From a virus, in the IMG/VR virus record IMGVR_UViG_3300025000_000083, positions 1 to 64,000 of that record: a DNA stretch of 64,000 nt; one strand, given 5' to 3'. A program made the translations under genes and the position numbers. Shown here piece by piece: positions 3,642 to 28,200 of the stretch (positions are counted from its first letter, which is position 1; every line of letters begins with the position of its first letter). The notes beneath the pieces are model-generated. The model did no database searches. It was not told the origin of the DNA and saw nothing but the letters and a program-made list of their open reading frames with translations.

Positions 3642-3741
3642 TCCCAGTTTTAATAAATCCAGAACATAAAAGGAATTGGAAAGGAGTTCTGGTTTCCCTT
3701 ATCAGTCGGACATGACCCCGACCTATCCAACTCCAAAGATA
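3642..3741 (-). ncRNA. Promoter plus type-A structured leader (copy 1)
   Basis: TATCTTTG, then GGAGTTGGA/TCCAATTCC closing a TAG-hairpin-TGATAA-hairpin junction; loop CCAGAAC pairs with downstream GTTCTGG. Confidence 0.75.
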
Positions 3742-3752
3742 TGCAATATTTT

Positions 3753-3971
3753 TTACTTCCCATCTTCCCTGTTGTCTAAATTTACGTCAGGAATGGGAAT
3801 TTCATCTATCCCCGATGCATCGCCACGTTCTGAAGAAGCAGGCACGTTATCCACATTAACAACTACAGGCTGCATCACTGTCATTTTCGGTCCCCGATAC
3901 CGATAATCCTCATCAGATTTGTAATTCTTCTTTTTCATAATAACATCAGTTTTTATAGGTTTAATAATCAT
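3753..3971 (-). CDS. Hypothetical protein
   Basis: ORF overlapping the upstream gene's stop. Confidence 0.45.
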   Translation of the reverse strand: MIIKPIKTDVIMKKKNYKSDEDYRYRGPKMTVMQPVVVNVDNVPASSERGDASGIDEIPIPDVNLDNREDGK

Positions 3972-4248
3972 TCCCTCGTAACATCAACTTCTGATTCTGT
4001 AATCCCCCCGGCTGACTCCCCTTGTAATATGTCTCACTCTTTAGTATCATCTTGCCATTCTCAATAAGATAACTCCTCTTCTGCCTCTTAAACACGTAAA
4101 CAAGCCTATAATACCTTATCCCTGTGGCCGTACTTAATGCCTTCTTATTACTGCAGGTTATTTTCAAACAATCCTCTAAATCTTCACCAATAGACTTGCC
4201 TTCCAAATCTACCACCATGTACATTTCCCTACCCCTTTCCTTCTTCAT
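3961..4248 (-). CDS. Hypothetical, possible HTH protein
   Basis: NKKALSTATGIRYYRL is HTH-like; lies downstream of a promoter at 4295-4302. Confidence 0.5.
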   Translation of the reverse strand: MKKERGREMYMVVDLEGKSIGEDLEDCLKITCSNKKALSTATGIRYYRLVYVFKRQKRSYLIENGKMILKSETYYKGSQPGGLQNQKLMLRGNDY

Positions 4249-4294
4249 ATTACTAATTACTTAAAACGGTGTCGCATTTACCGCCTTATTTTGA

Positions 4295-4302
4295 CAAAGA
4301 TA
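4295..4302 (-). promoter_or_regulatory. Bacteroidota sigma70 -7 element
   Basis: TATCTTTG matches TAnnTTTG, upstream of the leftward operon. Confidence 0.55.
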
Positions 4303-4613
4303 ATAACCTTGTTTCATTTACCAACATCTTTTGGCACTTTTTTATCAACAATCTACCAAAAATACCAATTTAACCATAGTGAGTATGCGCTGGTAGTCAA
4401 TGTATGTGTTTGCGGGTGCGCACTCGATCCGAAAATCAAATCTCCGACCCCGCCCCCTGGCAAACGGTTTGCGCCTCTTTTTATATGGACCTGCAAAGCG
4501 TTTCTATCCTGATCGTGCCAAACAAAGCGCATTGTAATATAATCTAATAGGGTAGGGGCAGAGCTCAACCAGATGCAATACTGTGCCCTCATCCATGCCC
4601 AGGGAAATGTTCT

Positions 4614-4641
4614 ATTTGACATAATATTAATTATAGGCTGA
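4614..4641 (-). other. dif-like XerC/XerD recombination site
   Basis: TCAGCCTATAA-TTAATA-TTATGTCAAAT in 11-6-11 layout; XerD arm matches TTATGTTAAAT at 10/11. Confidence 0.7.
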
Positions 4642-4654
4642 TTGGGGCTGACAT

Positions 4655-4744
4655 AATGAGTAGTTTTATTACTCATTTATTCACCTCACTCATTGCCTTA
4701 TGCAATGGGCGTTTGAAGCGGATTGAGTAAGTTTATTACTCAAT
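4655..4744. promoter_or_regulatory. Two palindromic operator-like sites, TGAGTA-N7-TACTCA
   Basis: AATGAGTAGTTTTATTACTCATT (4655-4677) and ATTGAGTAAGTTTATTACTCAAT (4722-4744). Confidence 0.65.
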
Positions 4745-4824
4745 TTAATGCTATAATATTATGTAAAATAGCAAGCTAACTAACTTAAAAAGTGTTTAAT
4801 ATTGTGGTTTTAAGTGTCTGACGT

Positions 4825-5439
4825 TTGAATAATTGGTTTAATCATGTACGTATGACCGGAGAAATACCGCCAAAACAACTGAAACGGGTCAAATCAGCCC
4901 TTTCTCCCTCTTCTCCTCCTCTTCTATCTAAATCCTTGAATAGTCTTTATAATAGCTTGGATGACTTTAATAAGGGTGTTTTTATGAGGGTGTTTAGTTT
5001 TATCTGGTCGTCATTGTACACACATAAAGAGTTATTTAAACGGGGTGTTCTTAATTACTGGTGTTTTGATCTTGCCCGTATTCATTCCGGCCTTACTTCT
5101 TCTGAGCTCCTTACATTGACATATTTATATCAGGTGACTAAACAGGGCGTTAACATGGTGCGTTCTGATGTTATCTATAATGGTCCAATACTGCGGGATC
5201 TTATCTATAAGTCAAAACAATGCGTTTTAAATGATCTTAAACATAAGGGATATATAACCAGGCACACGTATAACCCTGGTATTTTATATTTGTCGTGTGC
5301 TCACTCTAAGCAACCCGTATTTATTAAGATGACTAATAAAGCTACTAAGGTCCTCAATGATATTGAGAAGGATATGAGCCGGATAATGTTAAATACATCA
5401 TTCAATGATCTGACAGGGCACAACAAAAAACCCGGCTGA
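4825..5439 (+). CDS. Winged-helix (MarR-like) DNA-binding protein; start uncertain
   Basis: LTSSELLTL.YLY ... LNDLKHKGYITR ... IKMTNKA. Confidence 0.55.
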   Translation: MNNWFNHVRMTGEIPPKQLKRVKSALSPSSPPLLSKSLNSLYNSLDDFNKGVFMRVFSFIWSSLYTHKELFKRGVLNYWCFDLARIHSGLTSSELLTLTYLYQVTKQGVNMVRSDVIYNGPILRDLIYKSKQCVLNDLKHKGYITRHTYNPGILYLSCAHSKQPVFIKMTNKATKVLNDIEKDMSRIMLNTSFNDLTGHNKKPG

Positions 5440-5451
5440 TTAGTGCCGGGC
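5423..5451 (-). terminator. Intrinsic terminator between convergent genes
   Basis: CCCGGC/GCCGGG stem followed by a T-run on the minus strand. Confidence 0.65.
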
Positions 5452-5474
5452 TACTGTTCTTTGCTTCTCTCCTG

Positions 5475-5705
5475 TTATATGATGAATTGTTGTATATCTG
5501 AGCGGTTTAATGCACTCCTGCACCAATCTATTATTTTATCCTTTGTTGTGTCATCTTTAAAGGTGGTGCCAATTAATGGCGTTTTCTCCCCTGCCTTAAA
5601 CATTGACACAAATAAATTATAATTACTCTGTGAATCTGTCTGATAGACTTTTATTTTATACTCTCTGAGATTGTGAGTAATCTTATAAATAGTTTTTGTT
5701 TTCAT
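5475..5705 (-). CDS. Hypothetical early protein
   Basis: Clean ORF in a small leftward operon. Confidence 0.55.
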   Translation of the reverse strand: MKTKTIYKITHNLREYKIKVYQTDSQSNYNLFVSMFKAGEKTPLIGTTFKDDTTKDKIIDWCRSALNRSDIQQFII

Positions 5706-5724
5706 TGTCTTGGTGTTTAGTGGT

Positions 5725-5919
5725 TTAATTGTCTAATCCTTTTATATATGCGTTCGGTCCTCTCTCTGCCCTGATGCCTCTGATCTTCTTTTTATATTGC
5801 TCGTCAAGATCATCAAAGTATATGCAAAGAAACGGGGCATTAACTGGTCTTATTTCTTCAAGTCGGAAGTCAACAAAGAAATTAACCCCTGATATGCTTA
5901 TTTGTGGTAGTGCTGCCAT
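5725..5919 (-). CDS. Hypothetical early protein
   Basis: LP.I.I.G..FFVD.RL.E.R.V..P pattern. Confidence 0.55.
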   Translation of the reverse strand: MAALPQISISGVNFFVDFRLEEIRPVNAPFLCIYFDDLDEQYKKKIRGIRAERGPNAYIKGLDN

Positions 5920-5930
5920 TGTCCTTAGTT

Positions 5931-6113
5931 TTATAGTCCGTTATCTGCGTCACTGTATTGTTCATAGCTGTAATCATACGCATCATTTAATATGTCTGCG
6001 CACTCATCGCAAAGGTTAATATCTACCGGAGATATATAACCCTCTTCAATTAGGTCCCTCTGTTCCCTGCTGATCGGGAACCATTCACCGCATTTACTGC
6101 ATTTTGCTTTCAT
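5931..6113 (-). CDS. Small Zn-finger protein
   Basis: CSKC...CDEC. Confidence 0.55.
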   Translation of the reverse strand: MKAKCSKCGEWFPISREQRDLIEEGYISPVDINLCDECADILNDAYDYSYEQYSDADNGL

Positions 6114-6123
6114 ATACCTTATA

Positions 6124-6237
6124 TTATATAGGTAAATAGCTAAATGCCATCATCAACAGCGCAATGGCTGCCATAATGAGCATAAACAACCCTTTACGGG
6201 TACTGTCTTCTCTTGTTTCTAACTGTGTGTGTTTCAT
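6124..6237 (-). CDS. Small membrane peptide (37 aa, absent from ORF track)
   Basis: MKHTQLETREDSTRKGLFMLIMAAIALLMMAFSYLPI, downstream of TATCTTTG at about 6282-6289. Confidence 0.45.
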   Translation of the reverse strand: MKHTQLETREDSTRKGLFMLIMAAIALLMMAFSYLPI

Positions 6238-6711: not shown

Positions 6712-6715
6712 GAGT

Positions 6716-15441: not shown

Positions 15442-15571
15442 GGCAGTAAATATAAGGGCTCCGCAAGCAGAAGGACTATCAACAACACCCGAAGGAGTAA
15501 TTGCATCTGCTATTGGAGCCGTTAGTATTTCTTTTGATTGCATGATGTTGTTAATAGTCAATACAAAGATA
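15442..15571 (-). ncRNA. Promoter plus type-B structured leader
   Basis: TATCTTTG at 15564-15571; helices 15559-15544/15489-15474 and 15520-15506/15471-15457. Confidence 0.7.
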
Positions 15572-15575
15572 TAAA

Positions 15576-17204
15576 TTAATTTGTATTTAGCAAACTATTA
15601 ATTTCCGAAACCGTTGCATACTTACAAAACGTCTCTTTGTCTTTGTACTTTTCAAGCAACCCTAACTTCTCAGCTAAGATTAAATACCTTGGAGAAGTTA
15701 TCTGCGGGTCGATCCCGACCATTTTATTATATAACGTCTTTGTAAGAGCAAAGTCTCGTTCAGAATCTTTGTCATAATTAGGAACATCAAGTCTGTATTT
15801 ATTCCCCTCTTCTGTTTTCTTTTCTTTCATTGGTGCATTGAGAAAATCATCAGCCTCCTTGTCCACATCTTTTGGCTTCTGGTCAAAAGACTTGTTTATG
15901 GGTATTTCTCCCTGCGCTGGTGTCGTTCCTTCTTTATTTTCCTCCTTTGGCATGTTAGCAGCCACATATTCTGCAAGTTTATTCTCCTGGTGTGCAAAGA
16001 ATATCCCACGTAATTTCTTATTGGTGTTCTTGCCCCCGATGATTTCACAAGCCTCCATTGAATCCATATCATCCATGACCATCTTCTTCAATACCTCCGT
16101 ATCCATATCCTCCAATTGCTTCATAGTGTACTTGCCCTCTCTTTCTTCCGGTGCATCATTCTCAGGATGAACATCCCTGATCACTGGTTCTCCATCCTTT
16201 GCCACAACCACACCATCCATGTAAGCTACTGAACCTTTCTCTGCTTTGAAAGGGGATTCTTCTTTCGTCTCAGGTGAAACAATCACAGCATCCGTTACCT
16301 GTTGTCCTACAAACTTATCAGGATTGATTTTATTCACTGCACGTGCCGTTCTGTCTTCTGATTTGGCAGCATCCGTTTTATTGATAACAATTTGTTTCCC
16401 ATCTCCGGTGTTGATAACGTCCTTTTCTTCTGGCTTATGAGAATCCTCATTGTCCACGTAATCATAATCCTTTGCATCGACATCCCTTATCTCTGCCTGA
16501 TCATAGACAATGGCATTCATCATGTTGATGTCCACGGACAGGGGGGCATAGGTAGAGAGATTCAGCTTTAACACGGTCTTTTCACACATCTGCTCATAAC
16601 CTCCTTCTTCCTTGTCTGCCCATTTTCCCTTGCCTCTCTGGAAGGACTTACTGTACCTCTTGGCGTGGGTGTCAAGTTTCTCAATGGGCATGTAGTAATA
16701 CTTCTCAAAACCATTAATGAGCCTGAAATACGACACGTAACCAATGATGTTATCAGACTTCTTGCCTGTCTCGTCAAAGATATACTCTCCGGTGAATTTG
16801 TTATGGCTTTTCATTTCTCCCTCATACACCTCAGATACATTGATGATCTTAAACAGACCCGTTCTCTGAGCCAACTGAATGAAGCCTTTCTTCATCACTT
16901 GGAACTGTGCTTTCATTGACTGTGATGGTCCGTCAAAATAAGGCACGATGCCTGCAAATCCAAGTCCGGGGGTAAGGGGTAAATCCATACTTGCAGCCAT
17001 GAGTGCTGATGATATGACACTCATGTGGTCGCACTTCTGTAACTCTGCGCTTCCACTCATTATTGTTGTGATATTACTCACAAACATAGGGGCTTTCTTC
17101 CCCAATGCCTCCTCAAACTTCTTCTTGATAACATCTTGACTTAATAGGTTTCTGAACTTCTGTAATGAGGATCCTTCTGTTTTTGCTAATTCATTGTTTT
17201 CCAT
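15576..17204 (-). CDS. recT: RecT-family recombinase with long C-terminal extension
   Basis: L.KC...S..., LG.A.IVPY, AQFQ...KG.IQLA.R.G, VYEGE, IIGY, M..KTVLK. Confidence 0.9.
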   Translation of the reverse strand: MENNELAKTEGSSLQKFRNLLSQDVIKKKFEEALGKKAPMFVSNITTIMSGSAELQKCDHMSVISSALMAASMDLPLTPGLGFAGIVPYFDGPSQSMKAQFQVMKKGFIQLAQRTGLFKIINVSEVYEGEMKSHNKFTGEYIFDETGKKSDNIIGYVSYFRLINGFEKYYYMPIEKLDTHAKRYSKSFQRGKGKWADKEEGGYEQMCEKTVLKLNLSTYAPLSVDINMMNAIVYDQAEIRDVDAKDYDYVDNEDSHKPEEKDVINTGDGKQIVINKTDAAKSEDRTARAVNKINPDKFVGQQVTDAVIVSPETKEESPFKAEKGSVAYMDGVVVAKDGEPVIRDVHPENDAPEEREGKYTMKQLEDMDTEVLKKMVMDDMDSMEACEIIGGKNTNKKLRGIFFAHQENKLAEYVAANMPKEENKEGTTPAQGEIPINKSFDQKPKDVDKEADDFLNAPMKEKKTEEGNKYRLDVPNYDKDSERDFALTKTLYNKMVGIDPQITSPRYLILAEKLGLLEKYKDKETFCKYATVSEINSLLNTN

Positions 17205-17220
17205 GTCTGTAATTTTAAAT

Positions 17221-17496
17221 TTATGATTTACAATTTTTACTTTTCATCTCATCTGCTATTTGTTTTTGGGCTAATGACATCAGAAAGTCCTCACATGCCC
17301 TACTAAATTCTTTATACATTTTTGGACTCATATAAAGCTGAAACATCTTCGGAGGTTCTGGCTTATGACAAGCAAGATCAATAATGAAATCGGGAATTTC
17401 TTCATCATCATTATATAAACTTAATAAAAGAGAATGAGTAATATAGCCCTCTTCCATTTTCTCCTGCATATACTTGATAACCTCTGCCTTTTTCAT
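17221..17496 (-). CDS. Hypothetical protein
   Basis: ORF in operon. Confidence 0.55.
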   Translation of the reverse strand: MKKAEVIKYMQEKMEEGYITHSLLLSLYNDDEEIPDFIIDLACHKPEPPKMFQLYMSPKMYKEFSRACEDFLMSLAQKQIADEMKSKNCKS

Positions 17497-18074
17497 AACG
17501 AATAATTGTACTCTGCTTTACTACTTACCCATGACCTCTTTTGTGGCTCAATCCATTCAATGCCAATGAAGGCAAAGAAGTCCTCTTCCGTAATAAATGG
17601 AGGTGGCAATGTCGGGCAATTCTTATACTCAGGCTTGATGCGCCACGTGCTCCCCTTATGATCACACTCTCTTTTATACCTTAATCCGTCCATTGTGCCA
17701 CATAGACCCCTGCGATTCCATTGTACTGCCAACCCATGAGAAAAAACTGAGGATCCTGTCGAAATTGCAAGTATTCGTCCATAATCAGCAAGTGTAGTGA
17801 CGTGCAACTCTATCTGAATGCCCGATTCGGGGTATTTGAAGCGTTTTAAGCGAGTGCCGTTCGTCACAAGTCCTTTGAATCCTTCCGGGAACGCAATTCC
17901 CATGGAGAACTCGTCCTTGGGTACAATGACAAATTCTAAATCACCGACCATCTCACATTCCCGCCTAACTGAGCCAGCAATTGATATTTTTACACAAAAG
18001 GGAGAAATATATTTCTCAAACCTTTCTGCTATTTTTCTTGCTCGATCAAGAGACATTTTTAAATTTTTGCTCAT
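17493..18074 (-). CDS. polX: Minimal DNA polymerase X-like nucleotidyltransferase
   Basis: IAGSVRR...VGDLEFV, TGS..F, TEED.F..IG..WIEP..R; start revised to MSKNLK. Confidence 0.8.
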   Translation of the reverse strand: MSKNLKMSLDRARKIAERFEKYISPFCVKISIAGSVRRECEMVGDLEFVIVPKDEFSMGIAFPEGFKGLVTNGTRLKRFKYPESGIQIELHVTTLADYGRILAISTGSSVFSHGLAVQWNRRGLCGTMDGLRYKRECDHKGSTWRIKPEYKNCPTLPPPFITEEDFFAFIGIEWIEPQKRSWVSSKAEYNYSL

Positions 18075-18819
18075 ATATTTTAATTGCCTCAATTTCAGTT
18101 TTAAAATATCCGAAAAAATATCGTTTCCCATTAATTCGTTTAGCCGCAGCCCATCTTCCATTAGAACAATATACCCCATTGTATTGAGAACTTTTTTTCT
18201 TTCTAAATTGAGTAAAGTCGATACTAGTGTGCTTCCATGATTTATTATAAATAATTCGAGATAATTGTTCTGTTTTAATTTTAAAAGCAGAAGCAATTTT
18301 GGATCGTGGGGTTTTTTCTAATAGCATATCATGTATTCTTTTTAAATCGGATTCTTTAATTTTAGAAAAAAAATTTTGTTCTCCTAACATTCCTGTTTTT
18401 AAACCTATAGTATAAGCATGTTTATTATTTTCACTTGTTGTACACCATTTAAGGTTACTCACATGATTACAGCTTTGTATTCCATTGATGTGATTTACTA
18501 TTTTTTTGTCACTTTTTTCTAAAAAAGTTATTGCAACTAATCTATGTACGTAGAATACCTTTTCTTTATTCTCTTTCCATAAAATAACATGAAAGTAATT
18601 TAACTGCTTATTCCTTTTCCAATGGGATATAACTCTTGTTTTTGTATCAATATGCCCACATACGACACATTTTTTTTGAGACAAAGAAATTACCCTTCCA
18701 TAATTACTTATATAATATAGATTTTCATATTCAGGAATAGGCTTAAATATTTCATTAGGATACCTATATCTAAAATCTTTAAAATTAGAATCTTCGTAAA
18801 TGTTTAAATAATCTTTCAT
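18046..18819 (-). CDS. NUMOD4-HNH homing endonuclease with AP2-like tail
   Basis: FKPIPEYE.LY.ISNYGRV, VHRLVA..F, VNHING...N...NL.W.T..EN..H. Confidence 0.9.
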   Translation of the reverse strand: MKDYLNIYEDSNFKDFRYRYPNEIFKPIPEYENLYYISNYGRVISLSQKKCVVCGHIDTKTRVISHWKRNKQLNYFHVILWKENKEKVFYVHRLVAITFLEKSDKKIVNHINGIQSCNHVSNLKWCTTSENNKHAYTIGLKTGMLGEQNFFSKIKESDLKRIHDMLLEKTPRSKIASAFKIKTEQLSRIIYNKSWKHTSIDFTQFRKKKSSQYNGVYCSNGRWAAAKRINGKRYFFGYFKTEIEAIKIYEQKFKNVS

Positions 18820-18921
18820 TGTCAAGCTATTTAAGATTGTCAAGCAAAAAAGCAGAGAGAAGGAGGCTTGACTTCTCCGTATCACAGGGGGATCAATCCC
18901 TGCTATCTCTCCACAAATATA
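18820..18921 (-). ncRNA. Promoter plus type-A structured leader (copy 2)
   Basis: TATATTTG; GAGAGA-TAG-CAGGGATTGATCCCCCTG-TGATAC-GGAG..GTCAAGC.CTCC-T-TCTCTC; GCTTGAC occurs twice downstream. Confidence 0.8.
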
Positions 18922-18946
18922 TGAACTGTTGTTCATCTGTGCAAGT

Positions 18947-19477
18947 TTATTTTTTATTTAAAGGATTAACAAAGTCATTCCGATACCGCCATGTTCTATT
19001 CTCCTTACCAAACTTACCCATCTCCCTCTCATCCCATGAGCATTTGATGAGCCTGTTTGCCTTTGTCAGATTGGTGATGCTCCTGCGCACCGAGTTAAGC
19101 AATATCTTCTCTCCCTCTGCTTCAAGTATCTCATGCACCTTTGCCGGGGTGAACTTGTATGCAAACCTCTTTCTGAAGAAGTCCAATACAATGCCGTTCT
19201 GCTTTGCTGCCGTATCACGTGCCTGTGATAGTTGTTCTTCTGGCAACGGTACGGTGTCATGAAATACATTTTCTGGTTCCTTCATAAAAAATCTTTCTGC
19301 ACCGACAGGAAATCTATAATTTTCCATCTCCTTGGAAACTTCAATGTCTCTACATTCTTCCAAAATGCTCAAATGTTTATCCCTGTCTTTATCCTCCTCA
19401 TGGAACGTCAACTCAGGTTCTCTTGCAGACGGTAATGCCTCTGCTTTTCTTGGTCTGTGCTTATCAAATATTCCCAT
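18947..19477 (-). CDS. Winged-helix protein
   Basis: SVRRSITNL......K...G..G......W. Confidence 0.55.
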   Translation of the reverse strand: MGIFDKHRPRKAEALPSAREPELTFHEEDKDRDKHLSILEECRDIEVSKEMENYRFPVGAERFFMKEPENVFHDTVPLPEEQLSQARDTAAKQNGIVLDFFRKRFAYKFTPAKVHEILEAEGEKILLNSVRRSITNLTKANRLIKCSWDEREMGKFGKENRTWRYRNDFVNPLNKK

Positions 19478-19488
19478 GTCTTATCCTC

Positions 19489-19800
19489 CTATCCCTTGAT
19501 GCAAGTCAATCCTGAAAGTCTGTTATACCACTTACCCTTGCCATCTTTGATGACCTTATTGCCATCCAGACAGAAGGTAATCGTACACCAACACCCATCG
19601 GTAAGCTGATTAAGCTGAGTCATGTTCGTCTCATTGAACTCAAACATTACTTCCCTGGGATATTGCCCGATAAAAGTTTCCATGATTAAAATACGGAACT
19701 GTTTTGTTACCCCTGCTTTTGTCGTGAATGTCTCTGGCATCCCTACGTGGATGACCTTGCCGGAATAATCAAATTGATTTACGCTCTTGTTTTGTGACAT
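19489..19800 (-). CDS. DUF3127 OB-fold (SSB-like) protein
   Basis: YP.EV.FEF...F.L.G......KWYN.L. Confidence 0.75.
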   Translation of the reverse strand: MSQNKSVNQFDYSGKVIHVGMPETFTTKAGVTKQFRILIMETFIGQYPREVMFEFNETNMTQLNQLTDGCWCTITFCLDGNKVIKDGKGKWYNRLSGLTCIKG

Positions 19801-19808
19801 AGTTTTAG

Positions 19809-20225
19809 TTATAAAGTTTGAATTAAAATATACGTTCTTGGTGACTCTGAATATAGCTTCTCTGAGAATAACCTGCATATCTGTGAGTCGTCTTTGTAAA
19901 ATATGTGATTCATAGAATCGGTTGCGAATTTTACACAGTTATCCAAATCTTTCTTGCAGGTGTGAAACTCCGGTGCGTTATCTCTGAGCATGGAACTCTT
20001 TGCGCCACTACCATAATGACTCTTTGGTCTGCCGAAATAGAATATTATGGTTATGCCTATGGGTCCTTCTAACGGCTCCTTTGGTGCTTTCTGCTGTATC
20101 ACCGATAAAAAGTCATTTTTCTTATCACTTGATGGGTCATAGGTGCCTGAGAACTTACCTCTCTTGAAACTCCTGTGCCGCATCTGAGCATTGGGCTCAC
20201 CAAGCATCATTAATTCTATTGTCAT
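19809..20225 (-). CDS. rusA: RusA Holliday junction resolvase
   Basis: GEP....R.R, K.DLDN..K...D, DDSQI....K.Y. Confidence 0.9.
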   Translation of the reverse strand: MTIELMMLGEPNAQMRHRSFKRGKFSGTYDPSSDKKNDFLSVIQQKAPKEPLEGPIGITIIFYFGRPKSHYGSGAKSSMLRDNAPEFHTCKKDLDNCVKFATDSMNHIFYKDDSQICRLFSEKLYSESPRTYILIQTL

Positions 20226-21031
20226 TCTTTTATCTGTTTACCTATTATCCTCAACTTTTTTTCTGCATGACGTTTTATTTGAGACAAATGCATTTTTAAT
20301 TTTGTCTCGGATGTATGCAATTTCCCTAACCTATCCTTATTCCCTGTTTTGCATAGGCGCATTGCTTCTCTTTTTTCTTCTGACCACTTCCTCCCTACTG
20401 AATTTTTATTTCCTATCTTAGCCAAAGACATCTTTTTCCTTACTTCAAGAGACATGACTTTTCCTTTTTTAGCAAGACTCATTTTTAACTTTGCTTCATT
20501 TGAATGTGTCTTCCCTAAAAAGCTTTGCTGTCCCATTTTTGCCTTGCTGATATTCTCACATCTTTGTTTTTTATTATTATTCCAAGATTCACTAATTTTC
20601 TTTTTAAATTCTGGGGTTAATGGCTTCCCTTTTCCCCAAGGTATATGCCCCTTTTTAAATTCGGTATGCGGAGATATATGCAAGCCCTTATTTCGTAAAC
20701 TCTGCTTTCTACGTGATTCTACTGAATGCTTACAGCCAAGAGGGCTTCCCGCAATCTTAGAGATATTAAAATAAGGATTATATAAATCTATAAAAAATTG
20801 TTCGTTCCTAAGTAAATCAATCCTATCACAACCAATTAGCGTAGAAAAACACAAGTCATCTTCTCCATATTTATTGTAATGATCTTGCAATAAAAAAGAA
20901 TGATGTTTTTGTAATCTAAGGTCTTTGATATGTATGTTTTTTCTTTGCTCTATATGGACTGAACTTCCAATATAGCATCTTTGAAGATTACTTATAGATT
21001 GAATCATGTAAATGCCAGTGGTTGCTTTCAT
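20222..21031 (-). CDS. GIY-YIG homing endonuclease with NUMOD3 repeats (alternative start at 21136)
   Basis: GIY.I.....YIGSS, EQ.FI, repeated HS.E.K.KMS. Confidence 0.9.
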   Translation of the reverse strand: MKATTGIYMIQSISNLQRCYIGSSVHIEQRKNIHIKDLRLQKHHSFLLQDHYNKYGEDDLCFSTLIGCDRIDLLRNEQFFIDLYNPYFNISKIAGSPLGCKHSVESRRKQSLRNKGLHISPHTEFKKGHIPWGKGKPLTPEFKKKISESWNNNKKQRCENISKAKMGQQSFLGKTHSNEAKLKMSLAKKGKVMSLEVRKKMSLAKIGNKNSVGRKWSEEKREAMRLCKTGNKDRLGKLHTSETKLKMHLSQIKRHAEKKLRIIGKQIKE

Positions 21032-21164
21032 GTTAAGTATAAAAACCCCGATTGAAAGCGGCTTACTACTCGATCCATGTGATTGGAGGGAATACACTTT
21101 CGCACGGGGTGTTAATATTTCAGTTTCTTTTAACATGAATGAGTAGTAAAGCACTACAAATATA
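21032..21164 (-). ncRNA. Promoter plus type-B structured leader
   Basis: TATATTTG at 21157-21164; helices 21152-21133/21080-21061 and 21110-21095/21060-21045. Confidence 0.7.
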
Positions 21165-21175
21165 AGAAATTATGA

Positions 21176-21421
21176 TTACTTTGCTATACTTCGACCTATA
21201 ATTTTTATCTGACCCGGCAAAAAGGTCTCAATTTGCCCTGTCTTAACGTGCTCACATACTGCTATGGTGTAGTTCACTGCTGCTATCCTTTCTGCATCCA
21301 CATCAAACACCTTGTAGTCCAATCCCCAATAATGAAGCCAGTATTCACCCTTCTCATACATCGGTTCTCCGTCCTTTAACTCTCCGTCCTTCTCCCATGT
21401 TGCTTCTACAAGTATCTTCAT
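21176..21421 (-). CDS. Hypothetical protein
   Basis: H.WG...YT.A..E...GQI....P..I pattern. Confidence 0.6.
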   Translation of the reverse strand: MKILVEATWEKDGELKDGEPMYEKGEYWLHYWGLDYKVFDVDAERIAAVNYTIAVCEHVKTGQIETFLPGQIKIIGRSIAK

Positions 21422-21737
21422 CTTCTTTGTATTTCCAAATGTGTCCTGCCCTTGTTTTCTTTCCTGATTTCAATGATCTCAGTATCGCTCTTGATGTGTA
21501 TCCTACTGCCTTTGCAGCCACAAGTTGATTCTCAAATTCCGCTATCTCGATCCCTCCAAGATCACACTGTATGATCTTCTTTCCCGTTGCGTGCCCATAG
21601 TGCTTTGTCCCTTCACAGAACGATATTGACACTAACTCCCTGATGTACTCCTCTGCCCTGTCCTGTCTCCATGGAGTAATCAACCCCTCCTTCTTCATCC
21701 AATACAATGCCCTCTTAACGGCTCGTTCCTGATCCAT
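21354..21737 (-). CDS. NUMOD1-domain protein
   Basis: IIQ.DL.G..I.EF.....AA....I......K.T..GHIWKY. Confidence 0.65.
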   Translation of the reverse strand: MDQERAVKRALYWMKKEGLITPWRQDRAEEYIRELVSISFCEGTKHYGHATGKKIIQCDLGGIEIAEFENQLVAAKAVGYTSRAILRSLKSGKKTRAGHIWKYKEDEDTCRSNMGEGRRVKGRRTDV

Positions 21738-22401
21738 CTCTTATAATATTCAATGGATGTTCCGTTCCATGTGCGATAACAAAATCATTGTAGGCTCGGG
21801 CTGCCTGTTCGGGGGTTAAGTGATATCCTAAACGGTATTTTTCCCCATTATAATGAATCTCAGCAACCCATCGTTTTATTCTTTCTCCTGTTTTAATATA
21901 AGAAATACCCCTATATCCTGTTGTATTTGTCTTTCTTAGTAGCCGGGTGTTCTCATTACTGATGTTTGATGTAATCCACCTGCAATTACTTGGGTAATAA
22001 CCCTTGTCATTATTTTCTCTGTCAAGCAATAATCCTTTTTTATACCCATTTACTATTGCCCAATTATAAAATGAAACAAAATTATTTTTCCATTCATCAC
22101 AAATAGTTATTCCCCTGCCCCCCCATTCTGGATATGCTTTATCTTTAGGATTCAAACACCGTTGTTGCATAGCCTTAAACACACCATAAAGAGGATGTTT
22201 GACTAACCCATGCTTTATACTTCGTTCTAAAAATAATCTTGCGTTTTCACAATGGCATGATTTTATATACCCCCGGCTTATTGCACTTACACATGCTCTG
22301 AAAGGTTGCTTACAAATAGGGCATTCATAAATGGCAAGGTGCTTTTTTTGCTTACTATTCTCTGTTGTAAATTGTCTTCCTAAATCGTGAATCATTTTCA
22401 T
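21715..22401 (-). CDS. HNH-AP2 homing endonuclease (alternative start at 22509)
   Basis: Paralog of 14776: MKMI.DLG.Q, CPIC, GGRGI.IC.EW, DR.NND.GY.P.NCRW, AP2 tail. Confidence 0.88.
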   Translation of the reverse strand: MKMIHDLGRQFTTENSKQKKHLAIYECPICKQPFRACVSAISRGYIKSCHCENARLFLERSIKHGLVKHPLYGVFKAMQQRCLNPKDKAYPEWGGRGITICDEWKNNFVSFYNWAIVNGYKKGLLLDRENNDKGYYPSNCRWITSNISNENTRLLRKTNTTGYRGISYIKTGERIKRWVAEIHYNGEKYRLGYHLTPEQAARAYNDFVIAHGTEHPLNIIRDGSGTSR

Positions 22402-22544
22402 GGGTGGAAATAATGGAGCATCCCCGGCTGCTTTAATCATCGGCATCTGTGTCGAAACGACAGAATTAGACGAAACCAGGGATGCAGTATTTTTACTTAA
22501 AATTTCCATTATTCAGATACCGTGATTAAAGCGTAGTAAAGATA
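22402..22544 (-). ncRNA. Promoter-like site plus type-B structured leader
   Basis: TATCTTTA at 22537-22544; helices 22532-22514/22449-22430 and 22485-22474/22429-22418. Confidence 0.7.
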
Positions 22545-24902: not shown

Positions 24903-26873
24903 TCAAAAGGGCAGGTCCGACTCATTCTTTCCGTTATCTCCGAACACATCATCGTCCTTTTGGTTCTTTGGAGGATTAAGTGCTCCCCTTATTGGCTCCG
25001 GTGCTTTCTTTTCCTTGTCATCCACAAGTTCAAAACGTCCTCCCTTCTTATAGTCCATCTTCAACTTTACCCTGTCATGTATCCCTTCTTCTTCAAATCT
25101 TATCTTCTCTGTTCTGAGAATAGTAGGTGTTTCGGAATCTACAAAATACTTATCATCCTCATCTGCCTCCTCGGGAATATCCTCTTTCTTCTTCTTACGG
25201 TTCATATTCCGGTGAACAATGATACCTATGTCACTCTTCTCTTTCCATGCTGAACTCCCTTTGATGTCATACAAGCACGGCATCCGGTAGTTAATCCCTA
25301 TTTTCTCTATTTTGGTGGGGTGTGCAACGATTATGCCATGCAGGTCATAGTAGTCATTAAAATCAATGAGATGATCAAGCTGTGAACTTATATATGCCGT
25401 TTCAGTGATGTTCTTCGGCTGCTCATGTTCAATCTTGTTCCACGCATCAATGATATAACCAAAGATGTTCTCCGTCTTTTTGAGATACACAAGGTACTCG
25501 CATATTGATGCCATGGTGTTCACCTTATCTGATTTTATCTTGCCATTAAAGGTGTCAAAGTTCCTCCTGTCTGGTGATACGACAAAGAAATGCTTTTGTA
25601 TGTACCACATGGTCTTGTCACGCAATGGTTTTCCCATGGAGTTACCCCAACCATCCCTGAAATACTTGCCTGTGATAACCTCTGCTATCTTTACATATTC
25701 CCTACTTACTGGTCTGTTCTCAGGGGTGAATAACCCAAACTTCAAATCTGCTTTATCATTATGACTGATAAGTTCCGTGGTGTGCCATCTGACATACGTG
25801 CTCTTGCCTGATCCGGGCAAGCCAGTAACCACCTGCAGTCTCTTTGGCTTCTCGGTATAGAGTCTGTCAATCTCTGGGGTTCCCATCATCAAACCTTTTG
25901 TAAACCCTTCCTTTGCATATACTTCAAGTTCATCCTTGACATCCATTGGCCTAATGATCCCTGCAAGCGGGAATGATGATAGATTCTGATAGCACTCATC
26001 AACACCCGCTTTCCCAAGTGCCGGAAGTTTCTTATCGTCTTTATTAACCCCTATATAAACTTCGTTTGAATCCTTGTACCCAATAGGATAATTAACATAC
26101 TTGCACTTCTCTTTGCCAAGAAGCAACGCTAAGTGATTTCTTAACTTAATCCCTGCAGCATCTCCATCTGTGGCAATGATATGTAATTCAACGTCCGCAA
26201 TGACACTTTGAACATACTTATCGTGAATATAATCAAACTCGTTTTCAAAATTCTTCGCTAAAAGACTTGGTGCCCCTGATGGTACGCTTATAATGTTTTT
26301 ATAATCACACTGAATCCACGTAAGAGTATCTACATGCCCTTCTGTCCACGTAAGTATCTTCTTCTCTTCGGGAGGAAAATTGACGTATTCGAGTCCCCAC
26401 GGAAGCGTTCTGGTGCCATATTCCTTATTGAGATTCCACCATTTTGTAAAATCATCTCCCTTCTTCCACCGGATATTAAGATACTTCACATCTACAAGAG
26501 TCTGGCTGATGTAGGTAGGGAAGCCAAGTATAGGCTTCTGCCCCATGGAAAATTCAAAAACCTTTCTTCCTAATGGAATCTTTAAGTCAATTCCTCTGCT
26601 CTCCCAATATGCTCTTATCTCCTTCGAGTAGGTTTCAGCAAACTGCTTTGGCATTTTAGACCTCTCTTGTACCTTAGCATAAATCTCCATTGCCCCCAAA
26701 TTAGCACTCCATGAGCAATGATGACATTTTATCCAAACATTTCCGGGCTCATTATTAACGGTAAGGCACGGTGCGTTCTTATGATGCTGACGAGTATCAT
26801 TGCACTTTGGGCACTGCGTTGACCAACGTACTTTTCCGGGAATTGTTTTTATGCCGAGGTCTTCGAGAATCAT
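24903..26873 (-). CDS. T7 gp4/Twinkle-like primase-helicase
   Basis: Zn ribbon CPKC..CHHC, Toprim TEG..D and D.D.AG, Walker A GLPGSGKS, IID.WN, VAHP.K, YDI.GS..W. Confidence 0.92.
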   Translation of the reverse strand: MILEDLGIKTIPGKVRWSTQCPKCNDTRQHHKNAPCLTVNNEPGNVWIKCHHCSWSANLGAMEIYAKVQERSKMPKQFAETYSKEIRAYWESRGIDLKIPLGRKVFEFSMGQKPILGFPTYISQTLVDVKYLNIRWKKGDDFTKWWNLNKEYGTRTLPWGLEYVNFPPEEKKILTWTEGHVDTLTWIQCDYKNIISVPSGAPSLLAKNFENEFDYIHDKYVQSVIADVELHIIATDGDAAGIKLRNHLALLLGKEKCKYVNYPIGYKDSNEVYIGVNKDDKKLPALGKAGVDECYQNLSSFPLAGIIRPMDVKDELEVYAKEGFTKGLMMGTPEIDRLYTEKPKRLQVVTGLPGSGKSTYVRWHTTELISHNDKADLKFGLFTPENRPVSREYVKIAEVITGKYFRDGWGNSMGKPLRDKTMWYIQKHFFVVSPDRRNFDTFNGKIKSDKVNTMASICEYLVYLKKTENIFGYIIDAWNKIEHEQPKNITETAYISSQLDHLIDFNDYYDLHGIIVAHPTKIEKIGINYRMPCLYDIKGSSAWKEKSDIGIIVHRNMNRKKKKEDIPEEADEDDKYFVDSETPTILRTEKIRFEEEGIHDRVKLKMDYKKGGRFELVDDKEKKAPEPIRGALNPPKNQKDDDVFGDNGKNESDLPF

Positions 26874-27199
26874 ACCTTAATATACTTTTCTGACTTTTCA
26901 TTACGTACGATGAACTTCGGGCCATCATTACCTTCTTTGTCTGGATACAAGTAACAGTAGTCCAGTTCGGTGTCATACTTGCCATCTATTATCAGTGGCC
27001 TTGTTTTATTGGTAATTGTTGATACTGCCAAATTCGTTATGAGGGCAAACTGGCTTATCGTAAAGACATTGTAAAGCATTATTGTCTTTATCCTATCTTC
27101 ATCCATCCCTGTTTTTAAGGATATTGCTTTAATGAGCTCGGTGTCCGTCTTATGCAATTGACACTTTACTCCCCTTATAAGTCCAAATTTTTCTTCCAT
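26870..27199 (-). CDS. Probable HTH DNA-binding protein
   Basis: FTISQFALITNLAVSTI; TAGCTTTG promoter element at about 27220-27227. Confidence 0.55.
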   Translation of the reverse strand: MEEKFGLIRGVKCQLHKTDTELIKAISLKTGMDEDRIKTIMLYNVFTISQFALITNLAVSTITNKTRPLIIDGKYDTELDYCYLYPDKEGNDGPKFIVRNEKSEKYIKV

Positions 27200-27297
27200 G
27201 GTGAAATAATTGATTCATGCAAAGCTAATGCTTGTTATTTTATTTTGCAAATATATTTTATAATTTGTTTTTGTAAAGTTATTAACAGCCACCAAAT

Positions 27298-27323
27298 AAA
27301 AAGGGAAACATTACTGTCTCCCT
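27298..27323 (-). terminator. Probable terminator closing the late operon
   Basis: AGGGAGACA/TGTTTCCCT stem plus T-run. Confidence 0.55.
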
Positions 27324-27352
27324 GATTCGATGCGTCTGAGATGCACAATAAG

Positions 27353-28099
27353 TTAATTTTTATCTTTCTGACGCACTCGTCTTATTTTCCATGCTAATAC
27401 TAATTTTGTTTTTTGTTCTTGGGACATAGGGATTCCTTTATTATGAGCAGGGGTACCCTTACGTGCTTCACTTATCTTCTTTTTTATTTCATCTAACATA
27501 GGTCCTCGCTTTGGCATCTTATGAGATTTTCCTATTCTACAAAGACTTCTATTTATTAATGCCTGCCCAACTATTTTTCTTCCTTTATTTGCCTTAATTA
27601 TTGCTTGCCTGGTTTTTTCTGGCATTTTCCTTCCAAAATTAGGATGCTTATCTCCCTTAATAGATAATCCTCTTCTCTTTTTCCATTCCTCAGACTGTAT
27701 GCGTCCTTTGTTAGCTATACTCATTTTCCTTCTAACTTCTTCTGGTATTATCTTACCTCTATTAGCCTTTATTATTTTTTGCTTAGTTTCTTCAGTCATT
27801 TTGCGACCCAATGTACTTCCTGCTATTTTACATACATTAAAGTATGGCTGCAGAGTGTTAATATAGTATTGTTCTCTCTCAATAAGAAATTGAGGCAAAC
27901 AGGGTTCTATGATTGAAAAAATCAAATCATCAATCCCATATTTATCTGCATGATGTTGAAGTTTGGGATTATGATGAGTTTTTAGCCTAAGTTGTCTTTT
28001 GTGATCCGCCCATCTATTTTTATAATAAATAGCACTCCCAATGTAAATCCTTTCGGGCTTAACCTTGGATTGAATCTTATATATGACAGGAACGATCAT
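27353..28099 (-). CDS. GIY-YIG homing endonuclease with NUMOD3 repeats
   Basis: VIYKIQSKVKPERIYIGS, REQYYI, PYFN.CKIAGS. Confidence 0.9.
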   Translation of the reverse strand: MIVPVIYKIQSKVKPERIYIGSAIYYKNRWADHKRQLRLKTHHNPKLQHHADKYGIDDLIFSIIEPCLPQFLIEREQYYINTLQPYFNVCKIAGSTLGRKMTEETKQKIIKANRGKIIPEEVRRKMSIANKGRIQSEEWKKRRGLSIKGDKHPNFGRKMPEKTRQAIIKANKGRKIVGQALINRSLCRIGKSHKMPKRGPMLDEIKKKISEARKGTPAHNKGIPMSQEQKTKLVLAWKIRRVRQKDKN

Positions 28100-28200
28100 A
28101 ACTGAACTTATTAATGACACTGAACTTAAAAAAGATGGAAGAGCGTTCAGTAAACCCTTGTCATCGGGGGATCAATCCCGACTATCCATCTTCAAAGATA
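28100..28200 (-). ncRNA. Promoter plus type-A structured leader (copy 3)
   Basis: TATCTTTG; AAGATGGA-TAG-TCGGGATTGATCCCCCGA-TGACAA-GGGT..ACTGAAC-GCTC-T-TCCATCTT; GTTCAGT occurs twice downstream. Confidence 0.8.

What the first reader, a model, noticed from the sequence alone, without database searches (positions are those of the whole stretch)
3642..28200. Type-A covarying structured RNA leader heads three unrelated homing-endonuclease genes, with a loop complementary to repeats at the start codon
Seen in sequence (minus strand) at 3642-3741, 18820-18921 and 28100-28200. Each copy reads TAnnTTTG promoter, P1, invariant GA-TAG, hairpin P2 (GGGATTGATCCCC in two copies), TGAYA(A/C), hairpin P3, T, P1'. 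Stem sequences differ between copies but pairing is kept. The P3 loop differs in every copy and matches only its own downstream leader. GTCAAGC pairs with GCTTGAC, present twice with an 18-nt period, the second 1 nt before the ATG. ACTGAAC pairs with GTTCAGT, also twice with an 18-nt period, the second 1 nt before the ATG. CCAGAAC pairs with GTTCTGG plus a degenerate second CTGG. The cargo genes are HNH-AP2, NUMOD4-HNH and GIY-YIG, so the RNA is not tied to one nuclease class. Established: P1 c4 and P4 CI RNAs use loop/target pairing to silence their own operons. Inference: this is a portable, sequence-addressed antisense or pseudoknot switch with orthogonal 7-nt codes that controls toxic nuclease expression. 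A ribozyme or guide role is not excluded.
Basis: partly seen in the sequence, partly recalled or inferred. Interest (0 to 1): 0.9.

Follow-up and report, generated by a model that had tools for sequence, protein, structure and literature searches.

The report
Self-addressed leader RNA of phage nucleases
Three selfish DNA-cutting-enzyme genes of this phage each sit behind a copy of a widespread, uncatalogued three-armed RNA leader; one loop matches two sites just before the gene's own start codon and another loop matches itself, so the leader most likely holds down production of the enzyme.

Summary
Observation confirmed. The three minus-strand copies (3741-3639, 18921-18817, 28200-28097) share a gapless 63-nt fold: TAnnTTTG box, P1, UAG, P2, UGAYA, P3, P1'. 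A covariance model finds only these three in the window (60-72 bits; next best 10.9). The family is large. Stems covary. The P3 loop is complementary to two or more downstream sites in 58 of 74 copies, against 0.9% of swapped controls, with 35 distinct codes. The second site ends 0-7 nt before the ATG. New here: the P2 loop is always self-complementary (AGCU, GGCC, CAUG, GAUC, AAUU), which suggests a kissing dimer. Cargo is mostly HNH or GIY-YIG nucleases, but not only these. No window copy matches any Rfam 15 family. One Bacillus-phage member gives a sub-threshold match to int-alpA (RF02996), an orphan motif with the same layout. The most likely function is a translational brake by loop/start-region pairing; this is untested because no RNA data exist. 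This scan has reported the same kind of leader before on other phage DNA.

The parts
3734..3741 (-). Copy A: Bacteroidota sigma-A -7 box TATCTTTG
   Evidence: Read. A box is present upstream in 73 of 74 unique family copies. The box position of -12 to -5 comes from PMC9723704 (passage).
3672..3734 (-). Copy A: three-way-junction core. P1 5' strand 3734-3726, UAG 3725-3723, P2 3722-3705 (loop 3717-3710 GGUCAUGU), UGAUA 3704-3700, P3 3699-3681 (loop 3694-3686 AACCAGAAC), P1' 3680-3672.
   Evidence: 71.7 bits. The minimum-free-energy fold gives the same junction.
3659..3665 (-). Copy A: site 1, GTTCTGG, complementary to P3 loop CCAGAAC
   Evidence: Duplex energy -10.0 kcal/mol.
3644..3647 (-). 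Copy A: degenerate site 2 (CTGG), 2 nt before the ATG
   Evidence: Duplex energy -6.1 kcal/mol. It fails the strict 6-mer test.
3141..3641 (-). Copy A cargo: HNH endonuclease, 166 aa
   Evidence: phrog_99 E 4.3e-16. Pfam HNH_3 only E 0.0064.
18914..18921 (-). Copy B: -7 box TATATTTG
18852..18914 (-). Copy B: three-way-junction core. P2 loop 18897-18890 AUUGAUCC; P3 loop 18874-18866 AAGUCAAGC; P1' 18860-18852.
   Evidence: (60.5 bits).
18839..18845 (-). Copy B: site 1, GCTTGAC
   Evidence: Duplex energy -10.5 kcal/mol.
18821..18827 (-). Copy B: site 2, GCTTGAC, 1 nt before ATG 18819
   Evidence: Duplex energy -10.7 kcal/mol.
18046..18819 (-). Copy B cargo: NUMOD4-HNH_3 endonuclease, 257 aa from ATG 18819
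   Evidence: the ORF listing extends the frame to 18936 through the leader.
28193..28200 (-). Copy C: -7 box TATCTTTG
28131..28193 (-). Copy C: three-way-junction core. P2 loop 28176-28169 AUUGAUCC; P3 loop 28153-28145 UUACUGAAC; P1' 28139-28131.
   Evidence: (68.6 bits).
28119..28125 (-). Copy C: site 1, GTTCAGT
   Evidence: Duplex energy -9.1 kcal/mol.
28101..28107 (-). Copy C: site 2, GTTCAGT, 1 nt before ATG 28099
   Evidence: Duplex energy -8.0 kcal/mol.
27353..28099 (-). Copy C cargo: GIY-YIG + NUMOD3 homing endonuclease, 248 aa

Best explanation
Each site is a copy of a widespread family of leader RNAs.

Shown. A host-type promoter (TAnnTTTG) lies directly against helix P1. A ~63-nt three-way junction follows: P1, invariant UAG, P2, invariant UGA-Y-A, P3, then P1' with no spacer. 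After it comes a U-rich, AU-rich stretch of about 30 nt and then the start codon, at a near-constant 84-102 nt from GAUAG. The 9-nt P3 loop has 2 unpaired bases followed by 7 pairing bases that run straight into the 3' strand of P3. The loop is complementary to two direct-repeat words in that stretch. The words lie about 17 nt apart, and the second ends 0-7 nt before AUG. Loop and words covary through at least 35 different codes. The P2 loop has 2 bases followed by a 4-6-nt self-complementary word that changes by paired substitutions.

Inferred. The loop/site helix stacks on P3, as in an H-type pseudoknot, and covers the ribosome landing zone. Bacteroidota lack Shine-Dalgarno pairing and need an open, A/U-rich start region, so this pairing would brake translation of the nuclease or other risky gene. 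Because neighbouring loop bases cannot pair within one loop, the P2 word most likely mediates a kissing homodimer, giving two P3 loops for the two sites.

Open. It is not known whether the pairing acts within one mRNA, between two mRNAs, or from a short RNA ended at the U-rich tail.
For: Family and fold. The covariance model R1 gave 76 hits (74 unique) and none in the 8 loci judged chance pattern hits. On the 37-sequence gapless alignment, 91.5% of cells pair, against 70.9% in shuffles (0 of 500 reach it) and 43-55% when partners are slid. The three outer P2 pairs, which the search pattern did not fix, are 100% paired with 10, 9 and 23 double changes.

Loop/site pairing. 52 of 66 unique copies have an exact complement of at least 7 nt downstream, against 210 of 4230 swapped pairs. 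58 of 74 have two or more sites, against 43 of 4978 controls. In the site-1 helix, all 7 pairs change on both sides and 93.3% of cells pair, against 53.6% shuffled and 30-40% slid. All 12 copies found without using the downstream sequence and all 5 copies in cultured phages show the same pattern. Internal transition-type departures are 18 G.U-compatible against 5 A.C-type, as expected for RNA pairing.

Position. Site spacing peaks at 16-18 nt, and site 2 ends 0-7 nt before the next ATG in 60 of 68 copies. The start-region stretch is 71-74% A+U in the window copies.

P2 loop. 14 of 15 loop types hold a Watson-Crick palindrome of at least 4 nt. The central pairs are 72 of 73 and 74 of 74 self-complementary, with AU/GC/CG types.

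Precedent. RBS-hiding RNA structures regulate T-even homing endonucleases (PMC2988022, passages).
Against: No transcript, 5'-end, dimer or expression data exist; no RNA holder was available for this window. The fold is not thermodynamically unusual (z -0.7 to -1.5). Copy A and 15 other copies have only one strict site, so two sites are not obligatory.

A C2-symmetric kissing dimer does not fit two direct repeats naturally. The palindrome could also be read at the DNA level.

P1 pairing potential often reaches 3-5 nt upstream of the predicted +1. The promoter-made RNA may therefore lack part of P1, which the model does not explain.

There are method caveats. The counts come from copies found with a pattern that fixed GATAG, GG/CC, TGAYA and TTTG. 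The alignment subsets were chosen by pairing or by site offset. The sequences are related, so the shuffle tests overstate independence. The G.U tally used a score that favours G.U slightly.
Confidence: 0.5

Rival explanations
1. Trans-acting small RNA. Most transcripts end, or are cut, at the U-rich tail after P1'. This yields a stable ~65-nt RNA whose P3 loop silences read-through or upstream-initiated mRNAs of the same cassette, in the manner of P1 c4 or P4 CI or a type I antitoxin. It would give dose-dependent or cassette-specific immunity.
For: The promoter abuts P1 in 73 of 74 copies. In 49 of 74 copies, at least 5 of the 8 nt after P1' are T. Loop codes diverge to near-random as soon as scaffold identity falls below about 85%. 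Co-resident copies carry different P2/P3 combinations in 7 of 7 multi-copy loci, as expected if cross-talk in trans is selected against. Two sites would fit two RNAs. P1 c4 is described as trans-acting in a passage of PMC8546580.
Against: No simple hairpin terminator is present in the three leaders. The T-rich tail is absent in 25 of 74 copies. A helix that closes a junction is an unusual terminator. No small-RNA data exist.
Confidence: 0.2
2. Transcript-origin switch of the T4 type. Only read-through transcripts from upstream genes contain the whole P1 5' strand and fold the complete junction, which represses. Transcripts from the cassette's own promoter start inside P1 and escape.
For: With the box at -12 to -5 (PMC9723704), the predicted +1 lies inside the P1 pairing potential in 34 of 62 copies. 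The offset is -3 in 20 copies and -5 in 9, including all three window copies. No terminator separates the upstream genes from the boxes. The T-even precedent is in PMC2988022.
Against: P3 and its loop lie downstream of any such start, so loop/site pairing would survive loss of P1. In 22 of 62 copies P1 starts exactly at the predicted +1. The outermost P1 columns pair near chance (17 and 23 of 37). An internal promoter box is present in only 2 of 74 copies.
Confidence: 0.1
3. Positive element. Loop/site pairing organises or protects the leader, for example as a 5' stabiliser, a ribosome standby platform, or by opening an otherwise closed start region, and so raises expression.
For: The sites flank an AU-rich tract that is left single-stranded. 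With one loop and two sites, site 2 could stay free when site 1 is taken. The family also heads genes that a phage needs, including replication-initiator-like and DnaB-like genes.
Against: Site 2 abuts the AUG in most copies, where a 7-bp helix should hinder 30S binding. The cargo is dominated by nucleases (HNH_3 in 35 of 56). The known precedent for such genes is repression.
Confidence: 0.1
4. Catalytic or guide RNA. The conserved junction would be a small ribozyme or processing signal, or the loop would guide a protein to nucleic acid.
For: The junction letters are strictly invariant: UAG and UGA in all 37 rows. The loop is programmable.
Against: No self-cleaving ribozyme family matches even at E<=10. 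The only complement of the loop found is the RNA's own leader. The cargo proteins are protein-guided nucleases of unrelated folds.
Confidence: 0.05
5. DNA-level operator. The heptamer (one inverted copy, two direct copies) and the P2 palindrome would be protein-binding sites on DNA, as with I-TevI autorepression.
For: I-TevI binds an operator over its own promoter (PMC2988022). Palindromes are typical sites for dimeric proteins.
Against: The inverted copy always sits in the loop of a covarying hairpin, with a fixed 2-nt offset. Departures favour G.U. The same leader and code head proteins that diverge after a shared N-terminus (L011 and L016). At least six different central palindromes occupy one fixed position.
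Confidence: 0.03

Closest known systems
int-alpA RNA motif (Rfam RF02996; orphan candidate typed 'Gene; sRNA')
   Same: The order of parts and the junction letters are the same, as seen in the alignment printed: P1, UAG, P2, xGAAAAG, P3 with a 9-nt loop, P1', a U run, then a purine-rich word. One family member, in Bacillus phage vB_BceS_LY4, scores 39.8 bits with my model and 26.2 bits (E 6.8e-4 in a 141-nt search) with RF02996.
   Different: That score is below the gathering score of 35.8. RF02996 gave no match at E<=10 on window copy A, at E<=10 on the whole phage genome, at E<=10 on L016 or at E<=5 on three Bacteroidales-phage copies. Here P2 is longer and carries a palindromic 8-nt loop, the P3 loop is a free code rather than a fixed word, the targets are duplicated, and the promoter and hosts are Bacteroidota. 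I found no functional study of int-alpA: one search gave 2 papers, one listing it in an annotation table and one using the words for gene order.
RBS-sequestering leader structures of T-even homing-endonuclease genes (I-TevI, I-TevII, I-TevIII, segB, Aeh1 mobE)
   Same: In both, an RNA structure in the leader of a phage homing-endonuclease gene hides the translation start region (PMC2988022, passages in sections 9 and 12).
   Different: Those are local hairpins whose stem contains the SD, and they are relieved by a late promoter embedded in the hairpin. Here a loop of a conserved three-way junction pairs at a distance with two repeated words. There is no SD. The promoter lies upstream of the whole fold, and an internal box occurs in only 2 of 74 copies. 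The element is a conserved, portable family.
P1 c4 antisense RNA (Rfam RF01695) and P4 CI RNA
   Same: Each is a small structured RNA encoded at the head of the operon it controls, with loop/target pairing to repeated complementary sites, one near the start of the downstream gene. PMC8546580 (passage) says only that trans-acting c4 RNA represses Ant synthesis; the loop and target details are recalled.
   Different: There is no RF01695 match. Only one loop addresses targets, while the other is self-complementary. Processing by RNase P is recalled for c4 and is untested here. The hosts and cargo differ.
Kissing-loop dimerisation hairpins such as the HIV-1 DIS (recalled)
   Same: Both are hairpin loops of 8-9 nt, with two 5' bases followed by a 6-nt palindrome (UAGCUA, UGGCCA, UCAUGA, UAAUUA, UCGCGA). 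The palindrome is kept by paired substitutions.
   Different: Dimer formation is not shown here. 4-nt palindromes are also common. The biological role would be regulation, not genome packaging.

Membership tests
Rfam RF02996 int-alpA | Covariance-model score at or above the gathering score (35.8 bits) | tested here: not met
   There was no match at E<=10 on window 3620-3760, at E<=10 on the own genome, at E<=10 on L016 or at E<=5 on L132, L139 and L140. The best score on any family member was 26.2 bits, on L133.
Rfam RF02996 int-alpA | Architecture: P1, UAG, P2, GA-rich joiner ending AAG, P3 with a 9-nt loop, P1', U-rich tail | tested here: met
   The consensus line printed was compared with alignment A3 and the parse.
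Rfam RF02996 int-alpA | Neighbourhood of integrase and alpA genes (from the family's name only; recalled) | tested here: inconclusive
   1 of 56 cargo proteins has Phage_integrase, and most are HNH_3/NUMOD4.
Rfam RF01695 C4 antisense RNA | Covariance-model match | tested here: not met
   No match at gathering or at E<=10.
Rfam RF01695 C4 antisense RNA | Two loops, each complementary to target words in the same operon (recalled) | tested here: not met
   Only the P3 loop has downstream complements. The P2 loop is self-complementary.
Rfam RF01695 C4 antisense RNA | Mature RNA released from the operon transcript by RNase P (recalled) | not testable with these tools
   No RNA runs hold this DNA.
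T-even type translational control of homing endonucleases | The inhibitory structure includes the ribosome binding region | tested here: met
   Site 2 ends 0-7 nt before the ATG in 60 of 68 copies. In the Bacillus-phage copy, site 2 overlaps GGAG. This shows pairing potential only, not function.
T-even type translational control of homing endonucleases | A promoter embedded in the structure, so that late transcripts lack its 5' half | tested here: inconclusive
   An internal TAnnTTTG occurs in 2 of 74 copies. However, the predicted +1 of the upstream box falls inside the P1 pairing potential in 34 of 62 copies.
Self-cleaving ribozymes in Rfam (hammerhead, twister, pistol, hatchet and others) | Covariance-model match to any such family | tested here: not met
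   Searches list none at these places.
Kissing-loop dimerisation element | A self-complementary loop word conserved by compensatory change | tested here: met
Kissing-loop dimerisation element | Physical dimer | not testable with these tools
   Needs native gels or SEC-MALS of the transcripts.

The most novel reading that the evidence does not exclude
A natural two-code RNA regulator. Each mobile cassette carries a leader with a private dimerisation code (the P2 palindrome) and a private address code (the P3 loop with two matching sites). Monomers would occupy one site and leave the start codon usable. As phage genomes and transcripts multiply, leaders would kiss through P2, and the dimer's second P3 loop would close the site at the AUG. 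This would give a copy-number-sensing shut-off for selfish nucleases. Both codes would diversify so that co-resident cassettes do not cross-talk. It would be a ready-made set of dozens of orthogonal RNA off-switches that works in Shine-Dalgarno-less Bacteroidota.
Probability: 0.22. Interest if true: 0.85.

Novelty: new variant of a known kind. Interest (0 to 1): 0.7.

Why it matters
Homing endonucleases are toxic, mobile genes, and how they are kept in check outside T4-like phages is largely unknown. This work describes a portable promoter-plus-leader module that travels with very different genes. It is found in phages of Bacteroidota and at least one Bacillus phage.

The covariation record is unusually clean, with at least 35 address codes and at least six central dimer-loop palindromes. 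That record amounts to a natural design table for orthogonal RNA-RNA regulators. It also bears on translation control in a phylum without Shine-Dalgarno pairing.

It would give a first function to a possible relative, the orphan Rfam motif int-alpA. It also explains why gene callers draw ORFs through these leaders. Cultured phage-host pairs that carry the leader make the hypothesis directly testable.

Tried and rejected
Rfam. The gathering scan of the whole window gave 0 hits. The E<=10 scans and the E<=5 scan gave only chance-level, unrelated names at the leaders (mir-750, snoRNAs and others).

tRNA and tmRNA: none found.

Similar phages. Megablast of 12.5 kb of the window against the phage collection gave no match. 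blastn with a 121-nt leader also gave no match. Only a 46-nt conserved core found cultured phages; of its 7 records I fetched three and the model confirmed all three; the other four were not checked.

Thermodynamics. Shuffle z-scores were not significant, so folding energy was not used as evidence.

Terminators. The simple scan found none in the leaders.

Expression. No RNA holder was listed for this DNA. Read laying was not used, because all holders were DNA contigs.

Literature. Searches gave no description of this leader. The two 'candidate structured RNA' catalogues do not mention nuclease-linked motifs in their main text. Their supplementary tables, and those of Weinberg 2017, were closed and could hold an unnamed entry.

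Chance pattern hits set aside before counting: L074, L100, L103, L120, L121, L127, L128 and L130. None has a model hit.

Ideas considered and dropped:
- A hammerhead-like core: the letters do not fit and there is no model hit.
- A tRNA-like fold: there are only two arms and ARAGORN found nothing.
- Pairing of the P2 loop with rRNA: the palindrome varies too freely.
- A link between weak palindromes and a missing second site: 5 of about 18 against 10 of about 55, by eye, which is not convincing.


Full report
THE OBSERVATION. All three parse without gaps as follows:
- the TAnnTTTG box;
- a P1 5' strand of up to 9 nt ending in GGA or AGA;
- UAG;
- P2, with 5 bp and an 8-nt loop;
- UGAYA;
- P3, with 5 bp and a 9-nt loop;
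- P1', with no spacer before it.

The loop heptamers are CCAGAAC, GUCAAGC and ACUGAAC. Each has its exact complement 5-6 nt after P1'. In copies B and C the complement occurs again 18 nt further on, ending 1 nt before the ATG. Copy A has only CUGG as its second site.

Cognate loop/site duplexes are -8 to -10.7 kcal/mol. The nearest non-cognate combination is -3.1 kcal/mol.

The cargo genes are an HNH endonuclease (copy A; AP2 domain not confirmed), a NUMOD4-HNH_3 protein (copy B) and a GIY-YIG + NUMOD3 protein (copy C).

IT IS A LARGE FAMILY. An exact pattern from copies B and C found one more copy in viral contigs. All but three of the listed hits share the whole architecture.

I built a covariance model, R1, from 37 gapless members. 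In the window it finds only the three copies, at 60.5-71.7 bits; the next best place scores 10.9 bits. Across 76 sources it gave 76 hits, of which 74 are unique. Six of these are extra copies that the pattern had missed.

A genome-collection scan added copies in Segatella copri, a Bacteroidaceae bacterium and a Prevotella MAG. It also found copies on three 1-2-kb contigs of MAGs labelled Sulfuricurvum and Methanofastidiosum, which are probably mis-binned phage fragments. The eight loci that I judged chance pattern hits have no model hit.

A 46-nt core query then found cultured phages. The model confirmed three copies in Bacteroides phage C3_41T2LP, one in Parabacteroides phage PD491P1 and one in Bacillus phage vB_BceS_LY4. 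All lie in unannotated gaps just upstream of a gene. The genes are two I-HmuI-like endonucleases, an HNH endonuclease, an HTH protein and an AntA/B antirepressor.

COVARIATION OF THE STEMS. On the 37-row gapless alignment, 91.5% of cells form standard pairs. Column shuffles give 70.9% (0 of 500 reach the observed value), and slid partners give 43-55%. The three outer P2 pairs, which the pattern left free, are 100% paired with 10, 9 and 23 double changes. P3 is 97% paired. P1 is solid for its inner seven pairs and near chance for the outer two.

One caveat applies: the 37 rows were chosen for at least 4 of 5 P3 pairs and a P1 run of at least 4, so those inner pairs are partly pre-selected. The P2 pairs and P1 columns 5-7 are not.

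THE LOOP ADDRESSES ITS OWN LEADER. Among 66 unique pattern hits, 52 have an exact complement of at least 7 nt to the P3 loop region downstream. Among swapped loop/leader pairs the figure is 210 of 4230.

On the 74 unique model hits, 58 have two or more non-overlapping 6-mer sites within 50 nt. Among swapped pairs that share no 5-mer, 43 of 4978 do. The two-site copies carry 35 distinct codes.

For 17 copies whose site 1 lies at the same offset, a direct count gives 93.3% of cells paired, and all seven pairs show changes on both sides. Shuffles give 53.6% and slides 30-40%. One of the 17 rows is out of register, and the subset was chosen by site offset.

Site spacing peaks at 16-18 nt. Site 2 ends 0-7 nt before the next ATG in 60 of 68 copies. 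The ATG lies 84-102 nt from GATAG.

Where sites depart from perfect complementarity by a transition at internal positions, 18 departures are G.U-compatible and 5 are A.C-type. This points to RNA pairing rather than a repeated DNA word, although my scoring slightly favoured G.U.

Loop identity between two copies falls to about one third once scaffold identity drops below about 85%. The code is therefore free to drift or diversify as long as the sites follow.

A SECOND CODE: THE P2 LOOP. Of 15 loop types, 14 contain a Watson-Crick palindrome of at least 4 nt at the same position, and 8 contain one of 6 nt: UAGCUA, UGGCCA, UCAUGA and UAAUUA. One copy in phage C3_41T2LP has UCGCGA.

I counted the loop as a mock helix on the 74 distinct rows:
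- the innermost 'pair' is complementary in 74 of 74 rows (GC 46, AU 27, GU 1);
- the next pair is complementary in 72 of 73 rows (AU 43, GC 15, CG 14);
- the outer pair is UA in 55 rows, UG in 3 and other in 15;
- 0 of 500 shuffles reach these values.

Adjacent bases cannot pair within one hairpin loop. The constraint must therefore be intermolecular (a kissing homodimer) or act on the DNA.

The single non-palindromic loop belongs to L013. Its P3 loop also mismatches both sites, and its cargo frame is broken relative to its near-twin L069. It looks like a decaying copy.

In all seven loci with more than one copy, each copy has its own combination of P2 and P3 words. In the window, copies B and C share P2 but differ in P3. 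In L096 the reverse holds.

THE PROMOTER. 73 of 74 copies have TAnnTTTG directly upstream. All 62 unique pattern hits have the TA, although the pattern asked only for TTTG.

A passage in PMC9723704 places the Bacteroidota sigma-A box at -12 to -5. The predicted +1 is therefore the fifth base after the G. P1 pairing potential starts exactly there in 22 of 62 copies. It starts 3 nt upstream in 20 copies and 5 nt upstream in 9, including all three window copies. I cannot explain this without 5'-end data. It leaves room for a T4-like transcript-origin effect.

No simple terminator is present. However, 49 of 74 copies have at least 5 T among the 8 nt after P1'. An internal box between the junction and the ATG occurs in only 2 of 74 copies.

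CARGO. I scanned 56 non-identical downstream proteins against Pfam:
- HNH_3: 35
- NUMOD4: 31
- NUMOD1: 11
- GIY-YIG: 2
- DUF723: 3
- DUF4379: 3
- HTH_36: 2; DnaD_N: 1
- KilA-N: 1
- phage integrase: 1
- DnaB_C: 1

The leader is therefore a portable module of mobile or risky genes. It is mostly but not only attached to homing endonucleases.

HOW IT MOST LIKELY WORKS. Both loops have the form '2 free bases, then the pairing word, then directly the 3' strand of the stem'. From my own knowledge, not from a call, this is the geometry of an H-type pseudoknot with a short loop 1 crossing the deep groove of a 6-7-bp second stem.

The P3 loop/site helix would stack on P3 and cover the AU-rich landing zone and the bases just before AUG. 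Bacteroidota do not use Shine-Dalgarno pairing (established knowledge; PMC9723704 mentions the absence of SD sequences), so this should block initiation.

In the Bacillus-phage member, the promoter is sigma-70-like and site 2 overlaps GGAG 10 nt before the annotated start. The logic is thus kept across phyla while the targets change.

I therefore commit to a translational brake (confidence 0.5). The dimer clamp, with two loops for two sites, is an inferred refinement. The rivals are a trans-acting small RNA, a transcript-origin switch, a positive element, a catalytic or guide RNA, and a DNA operator. They are listed with their tests in the Rival explanations section.

COMPARISON WITH WHAT IS KNOWN. 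No Rfam 15 family matches the window copies.

Earlier notes of this scan report the same kind of three-armed leader in many other phage genomes: a palindromic loop, a loop against the ribosome site, and sometimes duplicated targets. Some of those notes call it a divergent relative of int-alpA (RF02996). I tested that lead. RF02996 does not match copy A, the rest of this genome, L016 or three Bacteroidales-phage copies. It does match the Bacillus-phage member at 26.2 bits, below its 35.8-bit threshold, and the printed consensus has the same order of helices and the same junction letters.

I therefore file the window copies as a new, uncatalogued variant that may be distantly related to int-alpA. 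I found no functional study of int-alpA.

The closest understood system by function is the set of RBS-hiding hairpins of T-even homing-endonuclease genes (PMC2988022).

LIMITS. There is no RNA evidence of any kind. Family members were ascertained with a pattern that fixed part of the core. The sequences are related, so shuffle counts are not probabilities. Supplements of the motif catalogues were closed.

Noticed in passing
window 18819-18936 and 28099-28120, minus strand: The mechanical ORFs run through the leaders. One starts at an in-frame ATG at 18936, upstream of the promoter box. The other starts at a GTG at 28120, inside site 1. The family-wide ATG offset says the real starts are 18819 and 28099, so a gene caller could hide these leaders inside an over-long gene.
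   Followed up: partly
window 3726-3734, 18906-18914, 28185-28193: In all three copies, P1 pairing potential (9 bp) reaches the G of the -7 box, 5 nt upstream of the predicted +1. Either the start lies closer to the box than expected, or the full P1 exists only in read-through transcripts.
   Followed up: partly
L013:53-135 compared with L069:6726-6808: L013 looks like a decaying copy. Its P2 palindrome is broken (AGCC), its loop has an A.C mismatch to both sites, and its cargo frame is disrupted. Its near-twin L069 is intact.
   Followed up: partly
L011:155-1027 and L016:797-1564: The leader, the code and the first nine residues (MDNSIEIWK) are the same, but the proteins diverge afterwards (291 and 256 aa). 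This suggests that the leader plus the NUMOD4 start is shuffled as a module.
   Followed up: no
L131 (OR296439.1 51603-51677), L139 (35114-35183), L140 (4291-4359); L132 (OP172815.1 21502-21568): Cultured Bacteroides phage C3_41T2LP has three unannotated copies, before an HTH protein, an I-HmuI-like endonuclease and an AntA/B antirepressor. Parabacteroides phage PD491P1 has one copy. These are usable experimental systems.
   Followed up: yes
L133:1493-1600 (Bacillus phage vB_BceS_LY4): This is a Firmicutes-phage member. It has the same P2 loop AGUAGCUA but a sigma-70-like TGATATAAT promoter, and its site 2 overlaps GGAG before a TTG start. It is the only member with a (sub-threshold) int-alpA match.
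   Followed up: partly
L123, L125, L126 (genome contigs): Contigs of 1-2 kb binned into MAGs labelled Methanofastidiosum and Sulfuricurvum carry good copies with Bacteroidota-type promoter boxes. They are probably mis-binned phage fragments.
   Followed up: no
window 603-779 and 15442-22544: First-stage notes on this genome describe other leaders with loop/target logic: one before the replication initiator, and 'Type-B' leaders before three more endonucleases. Model R1 does not match them. I did not examine them.
   Followed up: no
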